NCBI GenBank assembly: GCA_050633405.1
Contig: JBOEGL010000007.1
Location: forward strand, 184,892-248,891
Reading direction: 5' to 3'
Origin: Cognatishimia sp.
GTDB lineage: Bacteria > Pseudomonadota > Alphaproteobacteria > Rhodobacterales > Rhodobacteraceae
Length of the DNA: 64,000 nt
Shown here: positions 58,974 to 62,258 of the stretch, piece after piece
How positions within the stretch are numbered: the stretch's first letter is position 1
Layout: every line of letters starts with the position of its first letter
Made by a program: the position numbers and the translations under genes
Notes under the pieces: model-generated
Databases searched by the model: none
The model's input: only the letters and a program-made list of their open reading frames with translations
What the model was told of the DNA's origin: nothing

Positions 58974-61049
58974 TTACGCTTTGATCAGGCCCATGCTTTC
59001 CAGTTTCAGCAGAACCTGGTGTGCGCAGTTGTCGACTTCGGAATTCTCAGTCTCGATGCTCAGCTCTGGGTTTGCAGGCACATCATATGGGTCAGAGATA
59101 CCTGTGAACTCTTTGATTTTGCCTGCGCGCGCCAGCTTATACAGGCCTTTGCGATCCCGACGTTCACATTCTTCGATGCTGGTGGCGACGTGTACTTCGA
59201 CAAAGGCACCAAAGGCTTCGATGTCTTCACGCACCGCACGACGGGTTGTCGCATAAGGCGCGATAGGCGCACAGATCGCGATACCGCCGTTTTTGGTGAT
59301 TTCAGACGCAACATAGCCGATACGACGGATGTTCAGGTCGCGGTGTTCTTTAGAGAAGCCCAGCTCTGACGACAGGTTCTTACGCACGATGTCACCATCC
59401 AGCAACGTCACCGGACGACCACCCATTTCCATCAATTTCACCATCAACGCGTTGGCGATGGTGGATTTGCCGGAACCTGAGAAACCGGTGAAGAACACGG
59501 TGAAACCCTGATCTGAACGCGGTGGCTTGGTGCGGCGCAGTTCTTTCACAACTTCCGGGAATGAGAACCACTCAGGAATTTCCAGACCTTCAGCCAAACG
59601 ACGACGCAATTCTGTACCAGAGATGTTCAGAATGGTGACGTTGTCACGATCTTCGATCTCATCGTTAGGCTCGTATTGGGCGCGCTCTTGCACATAAACC
59701 ATGTGCTTAAAGTCGACCATTTCAATGCCCATTTCTTCGGCGTTCTCGCGGAAGAGTTCCTGCGCGTCATACGGACCATAGAAATCTTCGCCTTGGCTGT
59801 TTTTGCCTGGGCCAGCGTGGTCGCGACCGATGATGATGTGGGTACAGCCGTGGTTCTTACGAATCAGGCCATGCCAAACCGCCTCACGTGGGCCGGCCAT
59901 ACGCATCGCCAGGTTCAGCAAAGACATGGTGGTTGTCGCCGCTGGATACTTGTCCAGAACCGCCTCATAGCAACGCACACGGGTAAAGTGATCAACGTCA
60001 CCCGGCTTGGTCATGCCGACAACAGGGTGAATCAGCAGGTTGGCTTGCGCTTCTTTTGCTGCGCGGAAGGTCAGTTCCTGGTGTGCGCGGTGCAATGGGT
60101 TGCGTGTTTGGAACGCAACAATTTTGCGCCAGCCCAATTTGCGGAAATAGGCGCGCAATTCGTTTGGCGTGTCGCGGCGGGCACGGAAATCATAATGCAC
60201 AGGCTGTTGCAGACCAGTGATTGGACCACCCAAATAGACTTTGCCCATGCTGTTGTGCAGATAGTTCACAGCAGGGTGCGCATCGTCATCCGCGCCAAAG
60301 ACTTTTTCAGCTTCGCGCGCTTTGTTTGGTACCCAGTTATCTGTAACCGTCATGGTCGCCAGAATAACGCCCTCTTGGTCGCGCAGCGCGATATCTTGGC
60401 CGATTTCCAGCTGTGCGGCGAATTCTTCGGACACATCCAGGTTGATCGGCATTGGCCAAAGCTGACCATCTGCCAAACGCATGTTTTCAACAACGCCATT
60501 ATAGTCGGCCTCGCTCAGAAAGCCCTTCAGTGGGTTGAAACCACCGTTCATCAACAGCTCCAGATCACAGATCTGGCGCGGTGTCAGGTCGTGGCTAACC
60601 AGATCAGCGGCTTCAACCTTCAGTTTCTGCGCGCTCTCATAAGAGACATACAGCTCGGGGATAGGTGCAAAACTGTTTTGCATGTTTTTCGTCCTATATT
60701 TTATGGGAAATTGGGGGCTGGAAGACCCGGTTAGCTCTGCGTGTAACGCATCATATTCTGCAAACTTCCGGGCAAGGAACTGGTCAGTCAGGCGCGTCTT
60801 TTCCGTCGCACCTTTCAGTGTCAGCCCATAGGCAAATCTTTGACGATTATCAGGCCCAGGGCGGTCGCTTTTGTTAACAAGCTTTGCGTCTGTTGCTGAC
60901 CGCAACAAAGCATTCAAGCGGCCAAGCGAAATGCCAAGGGCCTCGGCGGTGGCACGCTGCGGTGCCCCCGGTGCCAGATCAAGCTGACGCAAAAGTCGGA
61001 AGAGCAGGTCTTCGTCTTGCAGGCTTATTTTAGCAGTTGAGGTTGGCAT
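58974..61049 (-). CDS. sat: Bifunctional sulfate adenylyltransferase/APS kinase with an N-terminal MarR-like winged HTH
   Basis: QTRNPLHRAH, GRDHAG, FTGFSGSGKST, LDGD, RDRKGLY; residues ~1-110 are HTH-like; second start with an SD at 60683. Confidence 0.92.
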   Translation of the reverse strand: MPTSTAKISLQDEDLLFRLLRQLDLAPGAPQRATAEALGISLGRLNALLRSATDAKLVNKSDRPGPDNRQRFAYGLTLKGATEKTRLTDQFLARKFAEYDALHAELTGSSSPQFPIKYRTKNMQNSFAPIPELYVSYESAQKLKVEAADLVSHDLTPRQICDLELLMNGGFNPLKGFLSEADYNGVVENMRLADGQLWPMPINLDVSEEFAAQLEIGQDIALRDQEGVILATMTVTDNWVPNKAREAEKVFGADDDAHPAVNYLHNSMGKVYLGGPITGLQQPVHYDFRARRDTPNELRAYFRKLGWRKIVAFQTRNPLHRAHQELTFRAAKEAQANLLIHPVVGMTKPGDVDHFTRVRCYEAVLDKYPAATTTMSLLNLAMRMAGPREAVWHGLIRKNHGCTHIIIGRDHAGPGKNSQGEDFYGPYDAQELFRENAEEMGIEMVDFKHMVYVQERAQYEPNDEIEDRDNVTILNISGTELRRRLAEGLEIPEWFSFPEVVKELRRTKPPRSDQGFTVFFTGFSGSGKSTIANALMVKLMEMGGRPVTLLDGDIVRKNLSSELGFSKEHRDLNIRRIGYVASEITKNGGIAICAPIAPYATTRRAVREDIEAFGAFVEVHVATSIEECERRDRKGLYKLARAGKIKEFTGISDPYDVPANPELSIETENSEVDNCAHQVLLKLESMGLIKA

Positions 61050-61065
61050 TCAATTTGTCTCAAAG

Positions 61066-61085
61066 TGTGTTCATGCGTGAACACA
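61066..61085. promoter_or_regulatory. Perfect 8-bp inverted repeat upstream of the HTH-sat start
   Basis: TGTGTTCA-TGCG-TGAACACA, 16 nt before ATG 61049. Confidence 0.55.
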
Positions 61086-61250
61086 TTACATAGTTTGCAC
61101 GTGCAGCAAAGGAAAAATTTCACTTCGCAGGCGAAATACACCCTCGTGGTCAAAAAACAACGAAAGGGCCGTTTACTGCGTCGAAACGCGAAACAAAGCC
61201 CTGCTAATCGGCAATTTTGTTCAGTTTTAGGCGAAGAATGGTCAAAAACA

Positions 61251-61282
61251 AAAAAATCCAGACCCAAATGAATGGGCCTGGA
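61251..61282 (-). terminator. Intrinsic terminator after trxB
   Basis: TCCAG-ACCCA-AATGAA-TGGGC-CTGGA preceded by an A-run (U-tract on the minus strand). Confidence 0.6.
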
Positions 61283-61316
61283 TCTTGCCGCTTACGCGGG
61301 CGATTCTATGGATGAA

Positions 61317-62258
61317 CTATTCTTGCTCGGCAATAAACCGTTCTGCGTCCAACGCGGCCATACAGCCCATGCCGGCCGATGTCACAGCCTGGCGATAGAC
61401 ATGGTCTGTCAGATCGCCAGCCGCAAACACACCAGGGATCGAGGTCTTGGTGCTGCCCAGCTCTACTTTGACGTACCCGCCATTGTGGGTTTCCAGTTTG
61501 TCTTTCACCAATTCGTTGGCAGGGGCGTGGCCAATGGCAACAAAAACACCTGCGCATGGGATTTCGCTGACCTCACCGGTCTTGGTGTGTTTCACTTTTA
61601 CACCGGTCACGCCCAATGGTGCTTCGGTGCCCAGAACTTCTTCCAATTCGTGGAACCACAGGGTCTCAATCTTCTCGTTTTTCTCCAGACGATTTTGCAA
61701 AATCTTTTCAGCCCGCAATTCATCGCGCCGGTGGATCAAGGTGACCTTCGAGGCAAAGTTCGTCAGAAACAGGGCTTCTTCAACCGCGGTGTTGCCGCCG
61801 CCAATCACCACAATTTCCGCGCCGCGATAGAAAAAACCATCGCAGGTGGCGCAAGCAGAGACACCAAAGCCTTTGAATTTCTCTTCGCTTTCCAGGCCCA
61901 GCCACTTTGCACGTGCACCGGTCGCCAAAATCACCGCATCCGCCGTATAGAGCGTGCCGCTGTCGCCTTTGGCCACAAAGGGGCGGCTTTCGGTATCAAG
62001 TTCGGTGATAATGTCGCCAATGATCTCACAGCCCATCGCTTGCGCGTGTTCCTGCATCTTGATCATCAAATCCGGGCCCTGAACTTCGGTAAAGCCCGGG
62101 TAATTCTCGACCTCGGTTGTGGTGGTCAATTGACCGCCAGGTTCGATGCCTTGCACAAGAATTGGGCTTAACATCGCGCGGCTCGCATAGACGCCCGCAG
62201 TATAGCCCGCAGGCCCCGATCCGATAATCAGAACCTTCGTGTGTTTCGTGTCGCCCAT
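61317..62258 (-). CDS. trxB: Thioredoxin-disulfide reductase
   Basis: [47 protein letters not shown]. Confidence 0.96.

What the first reader, a model, noticed from the sequence alone, without database searches (positions are those of the whole stretch)
60684..61049. MarR-like winged HTH fused in frame to ATP sulfurylase-APS kinase
The first ~120 codons (LFRLLRQL…QRATAEALGISLGRLNALLR…YGLTLKGATEKTRLT..FL.RK..EYDAL..EL) resemble the EPS-associated MarR-type regulators usually found as stand-alone genes in polysaccharide loci. Here they are continuous with Sat-CysC. A DNA-binding domain on the PAPS-producing enzyme suggests a trigger enzyme coupling sulfate activation (APS/PAPS level) to transcription, possibly of sulfated-polysaccharide or sulfur genes.
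Basis: partly seen in the sequence, partly recalled or inferred. Interest (0 to 1): 0.7.

Follow-up and report, generated by a model that had tools for sequence, protein, structure and literature searches.

The report
Sulfate-activating enzyme with DNA-binding head
In about a fifth of marine Rhodobacteraceae genera, the enzyme that activates sulfate carries a small DNA-binding domain at its front end; a matching palindrome sits in the gene's own promoter and a conserved internal start site is present, so the gene probably switches itself off and also makes the plain enzyme.

Summary
ORF 58974..61049 (-) encodes 691 aa. Residues 12-107 match the EPS-associated MarR model TIGR04176 (E 5e-21) and fold as a MarR-like winged helix. 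Residues 121-690 are an intact bifunctional Sat/CysC.

The fusion is conserved, not a local accident:
- It occurs in 55 of 301 Rhodobacteraceae genera, and none has a split form.
- It was absent from other alphaproteobacterial families sampled.
- The N-domain is under strong purifying selection (dN/dS 0.09) with no indels.

Three further results:
1. Every fused gene (72/72) has the palindrome TGTTCA-N4-TGAACA just upstream of the long ORF (window 61085..61066). It is the only such site in this 3.6-Mb genome. It was absent upstream of 14 unfused orthologs. The same half-site lies upstream of stand-alone paralogs, where it co-varies with their recognition helix.
2. An internal Shine-Dalgarno sequence and start codon are conserved at the nucleotide level (AGG-A in 88/88; ATG/GTG/TTG only). 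This predicts a 569-aa isoform without the domain.
3. The fusion state changed at least four times on the enzyme tree.

Best reading: an autoregulatory enzyme-transcription factor fusion of the BirA/NadR/PutA kind, made as two isoforms. Metabolite control of DNA binding is inferred, not shown. I found no literature on it.

The parts
58974..61049 (-). Long ORF, 691 aa: wHTH - linker - Sat (PUA-like domain plus ATP-sulfurylase) - CysC (APS kinase). The end coordinate includes the stop codon.
   Evidence: Catalytic motifs are readable in the sequence: QTRNPLHRAH, GRDHAG, P-loop GFSGSGKST, LDGD.
60729..61016 (-). MarR_EPS-like winged helix-turn-helix plus a long C-terminal helix (residues 12-107). 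Predicted elements: H10-25, H31-38, H42-54 (recognition helix ISLGRLNALLR), wing 58-76, H78-107.
   Evidence: TIGR04176 E 4.9e-21. AlphaFold2 mean pLDDT 82. Foldseek top PDB hits are all MarR family, such as HcaR, MepR, MexR and ZitR, with TM 0.5-0.6. dN/dS 0.09.
60684..60728 (-). Linker, residues 108-122 (GSSSPQFPIKYRTKN). Its length is invariant across genera and its pLDDT is low.
60692..60695 (-). Internal Shine-Dalgarno AGGA, formed by the Arg119 codon AGG plus the first base of codon 120. It lies 8 nt before the internal ATG.
   Evidence: AGG-A is present in 88 of 88 distinct fused genes and in 67 of 69 in a wider set, the other two being CGG. AGG makes up only 2.5% of Arg codons in these genes, and most of those are this one position.
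60681..60683 (-). Internal start codon ATG (Met123). This is the start of the predicted 569-aa Sat/CysC isoform and the position where unfused orthologs begin.
   Evidence: The codon is ATG in 64, GTG in 23 and TTG in 1 of 88 genes, and never a non-start codon. Unfused orthologs start 4-8 residues before the APIPEL motif. Predicted SD pairing is stronger than at the first start in 59 of 62 loci.
61066..61085 (.). Predicted operator: the 20-bp palindrome TGTGTTCACGCATGAACACA (core TGTTCA-N4-TGAACA at 61068..61083). It ends 16 nt upstream of the long-ORF ATG.
   Evidence: Present with 0-1 mismatch in 72 of 72 fused loci. Unique in the 3.6-Mb genome. Absent within 400 nt upstream of 14 unfused orthologs. 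The same half-site lies upstream of stand-alone paralogs.
61086..61252 (-). Promoter region of the fused gene. It holds a conserved CTTTGC-like element about 25-30 nt upstream of the palindrome and T-A-T-G-like bases just before it. The transcription start site is not determined.
   Evidence: Anchored comparison of 72 loci. The sigma-70 consensus scan found nothing. No Rfam family matched.
61253..61286 (-). Terminator-like hairpin followed by a T-run after the upstream gene trxB. It suggests that the fused gene has its own promoter.

Best explanation
The gene encodes a 691-aa enzyme-regulator fusion. A dimer-forming MarR_EPS-type winged-helix domain is joined by a short flexible linker to an intact ATP sulfurylase-APS kinase. 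I propose that wHTH domains of the long isoform, paired within the enzyme oligomer, bind the TGTTCA-N4-TGAACA palindrome 16 nt upstream of the start codon. Binding would repress the gene's own transcription, giving negative autoregulation with a single target. The same mRNA carries a conserved internal Shine-Dalgarno sequence and start codon, which yield a 569-aa enzyme without the domain. The cell would then contain mixed long and short subunits, and only a minority would carry the DNA-binding head. Shown by sequence comparison: the fusion, selection on it, the operator and its specificity to the fused state, and the internal start signals. Inferred: DNA binding itself, repression rather than activation, co-assembly of the two isoforms, and any dependence of DNA binding on ATP, sulfate, APS or PAPS (the 'trigger enzyme' step, which I put at about 40%).
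For: 1. The fusion is real and under selection.
- 736 clusters of about 691 aa carry it.
- 55 of 301 genera have it, none with a stop, and no split forms were found.
- dN/dS is 0.09 for the domain, 0.22 for the linker and 0.05 for the enzyme, and the spacing is a fixed 106 codons.

2. Domain identity.
- TIGR04176 matches at E 5e-21.
- The AlphaFold2 model has pLDDT 82, and Foldseek hits are exclusively MarR-family repressors, some solved in DNA complexes.

3. The operator.
- The palindrome is present in 72 of 72 fused loci, and about 10 loci carry two copies roughly 33 bp apart.
- It is the only site in the own genome: PWM score 35.4 bits against 15.6 for the runner-up.
- It is absent upstream of 14 unfused orthologs, including ones nested among fused lineages.
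- Ten of 20 stand-alone paralogs carry a perfect GTTCA-N4-TGAAC within 300 nt upstream (about 3e-4 expected by chance per locus).
- The half-site co-varies with the recognition helix: SLGxxN with GTTCA in 9/9, SFGGVN with GATCA in 2/2, and SVGG(M/I)H with GCTC.

4. The internal start.
- AGG-A occurs in 88/88 genes against an AGG background of 2.5% or less.
- The start codon is always ATG, GTG or TTG.
- Synonymous sites elsewhere in the region vary freely, so no embedded promoter is indicated.
- The internal SD is stronger than the first in 59 of 62 loci.

5. The domain is an accessory module.
- The trxB-sat synteny is shared by fused and unfused genomes.
- The fusion state changed at least 4 times on the enzyme tree.
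Against: - There is no experimental evidence of any kind: no TSS, RNA-seq or proteomic data.
- The promoter hexamers could not be placed, so repression versus activation rests only on the operator lying next to the start codon.
- The full-length AlphaFold2 model is poor (pLDDT 57). It says nothing about whether two wHTH domains can pair within the oligomer.
- The TIGR04176 score is below its curated cut-off.
- Operator and N-domain are physically linked and would be inherited or lost together, so their co-occurrence alone does not prove that one binds the other. The helix/half-site co-variation in paralogs is the stronger argument, but it rests on 20 related loci.
- Exact TGTTCA-N4-TGAACA sites also occur in 49 of 246 unfused genomes, so other proteins may use this motif.
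Confidence: 0.7

Rival explanations
1. Plain autorepressor with no metabolite sensing. The wHTH binds the operator constitutively and simply buffers the enzyme level (dosage homeostasis). The enzyme part is only a covalently attached reporter of its own concentration.
For: The regulon is a single site. The stand-alone relatives are tiny proteins of 105-125 aa with no obvious ligand pocket. The linker appears flexible.
Against: Simple autorepression could be done by a separate gene, as in the paralogs. Fusion kept in frame, with a fixed linker length, across 55 genera suggests the covalent link matters. This rival differs from the best explanation only in its last, inferred step.
Confidence: 0.3
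2. The palindrome is the site of a different, trans-acting regulator, and the N-domain has a role other than DNA binding, such as oligomerisation or partner binding.
For: Exact palindromes of this type occur in 20% of unfused genomes against 2% for a reversed control.
Against: The palindrome is never seen upstream of unfused sat/cysC. The same half-site lies upstream of stand-alone paralogs and co-varies with their recognition helix. The conserved residues include the recognition helix S41-L42-G43-N46 and the wing residues R63, D67, R69 and R71.
Confidence: 0.07
3. The palindrome acts at the RNA level, as a 5'-UTR hairpin that tunes translation or stability of the long isoform, and not as a DNA operator.
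For: It would form an 8-bp stem 16 nt before the ATG if it is transcribed. The first start has a weak SD.
Against: The arms are conserved in sequence with no compensatory changes, while the 4-nt centre varies freely. That is the pattern of a protein site, not of a structure. No Rfam match was found. In the paralogs the same half-site lies 100-150 nt from the start.
Confidence: 0.05
4. The N-terminal extension is a decaying remnant or a gene-calling artefact, and only the 569-aa enzyme is made.
For: The internal start is conserved and stronger. The extension was lost repeatedly.
Against: dN/dS is 0.09, there are no stops or indels in more than 100 divergent sequences, and 28 columns are invariant.
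Confidence: 0.02

Closest known systems
BirA (E. coli biotin protein ligase / bio repressor)
   Same: An N-terminal winged helix is fused to an adenylate-forming enzyme, and it represses a biosynthetic operon at a palindromic operator. Repression there is triggered by the enzyme's own adenylate product (from general knowledge). This is the best functional analogy, because Sat also makes an adenylate, APS.
   Different: The enzyme fold and the wHTH family are unrelated. BirA is not known to be made as two isoforms. Ligand-dependent dimerisation is shown for BirA and is only conjectured here.
NadR (HTH - NMN adenylyltransferase - ribosylnicotinamide kinase) and PutA (RHH - proline dehydrogenase)
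   Same: Each is a DNA-binding domain on a bifunctional metabolic enzyme that regulates genes of its own pathway. NadR also has the domain order DNA-binding domain, nucleotidyltransferase, P-loop kinase (from general knowledge).
   Different: The families are different. NadR and PutA control several promoters. Here only the gene's own promoter carries a site.
Stand-alone MarR_EPS regulators (NCBIfam TIGR04176)
   Same: About 40% identity to the N-domain. The fold has the same wHTH plus long C-terminal helix. The operator type is the same, GTTCA-N4-TGAAC.
   Different: They are separate genes of about 105-170 aa and the first gene of polysaccharide loci, with an ops-like leader and a NusG paralog nearby. 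The fused domain scores below the family cut-off and lies in no EPS locus.
Penicillium chrysogenum ATP sulfurylase (PDB 1I2D) and Aquifex aeolicus Sat/APS kinase (2GKS)
   Same: These are the closest solved structures of the enzyme part (E 7e-201 and 6e-164), with the same PUA-like, sulfurylase and APS-kinase-like order. The fungal enzyme uses its kinase-like domain as an allosteric PAPS sensor (from general knowledge), a precedent for PAPS-dependent conformational change.
   Different: Neither has a DNA-binding domain. Here the kinase P-loop and the LDGD motif are intact, so the domain is probably catalytic.

Membership tests
Bifunctional Sat/CysC (NCBIfam NF004040) | Whole-protein HMM score above the curated cut-off | tested here: met
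   1037 bits against a cut-off of 669, residues 121-690
Bifunctional Sat/CysC (NCBIfam NF004040) | Catalytic motifs of ATP sulfurylase (QxRNPxHxxH, GRDHAG) and of APS kinase (P-loop GxxGxGKS/T, LDGD) | tested here: met
   FQTRNPLHRAH, IGRDHAGPG, GFSGSGKST and LLDGD are readable in P0001 and invariant in 50 fused orthologs
Bifunctional Sat/CysC (NCBIfam NF004040) | Both enzyme activities demonstrated | not testable with these tools
   Needs enzyme assays
MarR_EPS (NCBIfam TIGR04176, equivalog) | HMM score above the curated cut-off of 88 bits | tested here: not met
   74.7 bits, E 4.9e-21, covering 96 of 105 model positions. It is a clear relative but not an equivalog member.
MarR_EPS (NCBIfam TIGR04176, equivalog) | Small stand-alone protein encoded in or next to an exopolysaccharide locus | tested here: not met
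   The domain is fused to Sat/CysC. Its neighbours are trxB, an lrp-type regulator and hsp20, with no polysaccharide genes. The stand-alone paralogs do meet this feature.
MarR-type winged helix (fold level) | HTH, beta-hairpin wing and a flanking dimerisation helix | tested here: met
   AlphaFold2 pLDDT 82 with H-H-H-wing-long helix. The 50 best Foldseek PDB hits listed are almost all MarR-family repressors. The Pfam MarR_2 match is only E 0.025, while HTH_24 scores 23.1 bits against a cut-off of 21.9.
Trigger enzyme (enzyme that also acts as a transcription factor) | Catalytic domain and DNA-binding domain in one polypeptide | tested here: met
   A continuous ORF conserved in 55 genera and under purifying selection
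Trigger enzyme (enzyme that also acts as a transcription factor) | Sequence-specific DNA binding at a regulated promoter | tested here: inconclusive
   A cognate palindrome is predicted by comparative genomics. Binding itself was not shown.
Trigger enzyme (enzyme that also acts as a transcription factor) | Regulatory activity controlled by the enzyme's substrate or product state | not testable with these tools
   Needs EMSA or reporter assays with and without ATP, sulfate, APS and PAPS

The most novel reading that the evidence does not exclude
The enzyme oligomer acts as its own sensor. Long and short isoforms made from one mRNA co-assemble. DNA binding needs two wHTH heads brought together, and APS or PAPS occupancy of the sulfurylase/kinase domains changes the geometry that pairs them. 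Transcription of the only sulfate-activating enzyme would then be set jointly by enzyme concentration, isoform ratio and the level of activated sulfate. That would be a BirA-like adenylate switch built on a two-isoform hetero-oligomer, a design not described for any trigger enzyme.
Probability: 0.3. Interest if true: 0.75.

Novelty: new variant of a known kind. Interest (0 to 1): 0.62.

Why it matters
Sulfate activation is the entry point of sulfur assimilation and the only route to PAPS. In this genome the fused gene is the sole ATP sulfurylase detected: there is no CysD, and CysH is of the APS-reductase type. Roseobacter-group bacteria dominate marine organic-sulfur cycling, yet how they control sulfate activation is not known.

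A self-contained enzyme-repressor with a one-site regulon, a precisely predicted 20-bp operator and a predicted pair of isoforms is a compact, directly testable regulatory device. It would add a new enzyme class and a new DNA-binding family to the short list of trigger enzymes.

The work also gives the first operator prediction for the uncharacterised MarR_EPS family. It further shows how a regulator at the head of polysaccharide loci (at least one with a sulfotransferase nearby) may have been captured by the PAPS-making enzyme.

Tried and rejected
- **Split orthologs.** I searched 20 unfused loci for an upstream wHTH gene and 301 genomes for high-scoring short frames. None was found. The only short frames were cut by contig ends.
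- **Short hits in the protein database.** Most are fragments from short contigs or carry the start of the enzyme domain, so they look like pieces of the fused gene, not stand-alone genes. A few on long contigs (for example a 125-aa protein on a 304-kb contig) were not examined.
- **Full-length AlphaFold2 model.** Mean pLDDT was 57 because the alignment is shallow (89% mean identity). It is not usable for domain packing.
- **Sigma-70 promoter scan of 60500..61400.** No hit. My manual attempts to place -35 and -10 hexamers gave spacers of 13-15 nt, so I left them open.
- **Riboswitch or leader RNA.** No Rfam match at E <= 1.
- **Genome-wide exact-pattern test across 301 genomes.** The pattern occurred in 33 of 55 fused genomes and 49 of 246 unfused ones, against 6 of 301 for the control pattern (combined). 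This is less discriminating than the local test, because half of the operators have one mismatch and other users of the motif exist.
- **A wider regulon.** The PWM scan of the own genome gave no second site above 15.6 bits.
- **LexA box.** The alphaproteobacterial SOS box is a direct repeat, GTTC-N7-GTTC (from general knowledge). Here the repeat is inverted with N6 between the GTTC and GAAC cores, so I rejected this reading.
- **Literature.** Six full-text searches found nothing on this fusion. [quoted passage not shown]
Full report
**The observation**

The minus-strand ORF 58974..61049 is open for 691 codons.
- Residues 12-107 match NCBIfam TIGR04176, 'MarR family EPS-associated transcriptional regulator', at E 4.9e-21. 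The score of 74.7 bits is below the curated cut-off of 88. The match covers model positions 2-97 of 105.
- The isolated domain matches Pfam HTH_24 just above its cut-off.
- Residues 121-690 match the equivalog model for bifunctional sulfate adenylyltransferase/adenylylsulfate kinase, NF004040, at 1037 bits against a cut-off of 669.
- The sulfurylase motifs (QTRNPLHRAH, GRDHAG) and the kinase motifs (GFSGSGKST, LDGD) are intact.

**Is the fusion real?**

- A search restricted to residues 1-125 found 736 clusters (at 90% identity) of proteins of about 691 aa with the same N-terminus. The named ones are all from roseobacter-group genera such as Shimia, Leisingera, Planktotalea, Roseovarius, Sulfitobacter and Pseudoruegeria.
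- A profile of the N-domain (A1) was run against one genome from each of 301 genera of the family. It found the domain continuous with Sat/CysC in 55 genera (E 1e-66 to 1e-42). No internal stop was seen, and the only short frames were cut by contig ends.
- A clearly separate class of weaker hits (E 1e-31 to 1e-15, frames of 119-222 aa) represents stand-alone paralogs. At least eight genomes have both forms.
- Twenty unfused sat/cysC loci have no such domain within 1.5 kb upstream.
- In 401 genomes spread over the class, fused forms appear only in the window's own family.
- Across 45 gaplessly comparable genes, dN/dS is 0.09 for the wHTH and helix, 0.22 for the linker and 0.05 for the enzyme. 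The distance from F17 to the internal start is 106 codons in all 72 genes.

The extension is therefore translated and under selection.

**What the domain is**

- AlphaFold2 on the N-domain alignment gives mean pLDDT 82. The predicted elements are three helices, a beta-hairpin wing and a 30-residue C-terminal helix.
- The 50 best Foldseek PDB hits listed are almost all MarR-family repressors, including HcaR, MepR, MexR and ZitR, some solved in DNA complexes. TM scores are 0.5-0.6.
- By sequence, the PDB offers only weak MarR hits.
- An exhaustive HMMER search shows that the nearest independent relatives are proteins of 100-170 aa at about 40% identity.
- In Rhodobacteraceae these stand-alone genes head polysaccharide loci. 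Downstream genes include an NAD-dependent epimerase, a UDP-glucose dehydrogenase, GT1 glycosyltransferases and Wzt or ABC exporters. One locus has a sulfotransferase nearby.

**A cognate operator**

- Immediately upstream of the long ORF, every fused gene carries TGTTCA-N4-TGAACA: 40 loci exactly and 32 with one mismatch, 72 of 72 in all. Often it is the 20-bp form TGTGTTCACGCGTGAACACA.
- About ten loci have two copies roughly 33 bp apart.
- In the window it lies at 61085..61066, 16 nt before the ATG.
- It is the only exact copy in the 3.6-Mb genome.
- A weight matrix built from the orthologous sites scores it at 35.4 bits, with the next best site anywhere at 15.6 bits. The predicted regulon is therefore the gene itself.
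- Fourteen unfused orthologs have nothing like it within 400 nt upstream. They share a different motif.
- Ten of 20 stand-alone paralogs have a perfect GTTCA-N4-TGAAC within 300 nt upstream of their own gene.
- The half-site tracks the recognition helix. SLGxxN goes with GTTCA (9 of 9), SFGGVN with GATCA (2 of 2), and SVGG(M/I)H with GCTC(A/G). The fused domain has ISLGRLN and GTTCA.
- The arms are conserved in sequence while the centre varies. That argues for a protein site and against an RNA hairpin.

This is the strongest available evidence, short of an experiment, that the domain binds DNA at its own promoter.

**Two isoforms**

- Three codons before the internal start, the invariant Arg is encoded by AGG followed by A in 88 of 88 distinct genes. 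AGG makes up only 2.5% of Arg codons in these genes, and most of those are this very position.
- In a wider set the count is 67 AGG and 2 CGG.
- The residue at the enzyme's start is M, V or L, but the codon is always ATG (64), GTG (23) or TTG (1).
- Neighbouring synonymous sites vary freely, so there is no sign of an embedded promoter.
- Predicted SD/anti-SD pairing is stronger at the internal start than at the first start in 59 of 62 loci, with medians of -4.0 and -2.2 kcal/mol.
- Unfused orthologs begin at the same place.

The gene therefore very probably produces both the 691-aa fusion and a 569-aa plain enzyme. The plain enzyme is likely the more abundant form.

**Evolution and context**

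- trxB lies upstream in 68 of 92 fused loci and 11 of 20 unfused loci, so the module sits at a conserved position.
- On a tree of the enzyme part, unfused sequences are scattered among fused ones. Well-supported branches force at least four changes, and parsimony gives eight.
- The simplest reading is one old gain followed by repeated losses. Losses are easy because the ancestral start is retained.
- In this genome the fused gene is the only ATP sulfurylase found. A single PAPS_reduct gene is present: a cysH with the CC...CxxC signature of APS reductases, next to cysI. There is no CysD. Two sulfotransferase-domain proteins exist.
- APS would thus feed assimilation and PAPS would feed sulfation.

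**Mechanism proposed**

1. Paired wHTH heads of long subunits bind the palindrome.
2. Given its position next to the start codon, and the second upstream copy in some genera, binding probably represses transcription.
3. The internal start supplies head-less subunits that may co-assemble with long ones.
4. Whether binding responds to ATP, sulfate, APS or PAPS, as in BirA, is conjecture.

The closest solved relative of the enzyme part, the Penicillium ATP sulfurylase, is known to change conformation on binding PAPS. I cite this from general knowledge as a plausibility argument only.

**What is missing**

- The promoter hexamers were not placed.
- The full-length model is poor.
- Operator and domain are linked on the DNA, so they would be inherited together in any case.

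**Prior work**

- Six literature searches found no description of this fusion.
- Database records name the protein only as the bifunctional enzyme.
- After I had completed these analyses, the scan's own notes showed that another agent, working on another genome, had reached the same reading. That is agreement, not independent evidence.

**Verdict**

This is a real, conserved and apparently undescribed enzyme-regulator fusion. It is a new variant of the trigger-enzyme kind, and it has an unusually complete and testable set of predicted parts.

Noticed in passing
L144-L163 (stand-alone MarR_EPS loci from other Rhodobacteraceae genomes): The leaders of the stand-alone paralogs carry a conserved GTGCGGTAGCC, which resembles the ops/JUMPstart core GGCGGTAG. 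A divergent NusG paralog (PF02357, N-terminus WFLAQLKPN) was confirmed just upstream in L154 and L163, and a similar ORF is present in L157. This suggests an RfaH-like antitermination system on these polysaccharide operons in alphaproteobacteria.
   Followed up: partly
L014-L033 (unfused sat/cysC loci), about 60-110 nt upstream of the start: Several unfused orthologs share a different conserved upstream element, CTAGAC - about 17 nt - GGGTCTAT. It may be their promoter or another regulator's inverted repeat (TAGAC...GTCTA).
   Followed up: no
G045, G092, G209, G281 and G057, G103, G254: Identical palindromes recur in unfused genomes of different genera: TGTTCACCAATGAACA in four and TGTTCACCATTGAACA in three. 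Overall, the exact motif occurs in 20% of unfused genomes against 2% for a reversed control. Some other conserved site uses the same half-site.
   Followed up: no
many alphaproteobacterial families: The N-domain profile hits the N-terminal part of 200-290-aa frames at E about 1e-13 in dozens of unrelated families. These may be LexA-type winged helices. This was not checked.
   Followed up: no
L168 (own genome, C5:952646-953158 and flanks): The cluster reads cysI, then cysH, then a ferredoxin-NADP reductase-like gene. CysH has CC...CAPC, the iron-sulfur signature of APS reductases, so PAPS is not needed for assimilation in this organism. Two sulfotransferase-domain proteins (624-aa and 539-aa frames) lie at C7:141632 and C17:5793.
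   Followed up: partly
L161, about 1.4-2.1 kb upstream of the stand-alone MarR_EPS gene: A Sulfotransfer_2 protein (PF03567, E 3.7e-6) lies next to a stand-alone MarR_EPS polysaccharide locus. This hints that the family is associated with sulfated polysaccharides, and so at why it was captured by the PAPS synthase.
   Followed up: no
window 61253..61286 (-): A strong terminator-like hairpin (14 pairs followed by a T-run) lies directly after trxB. It separates trxB from the fused gene's promoter.
   Followed up: no
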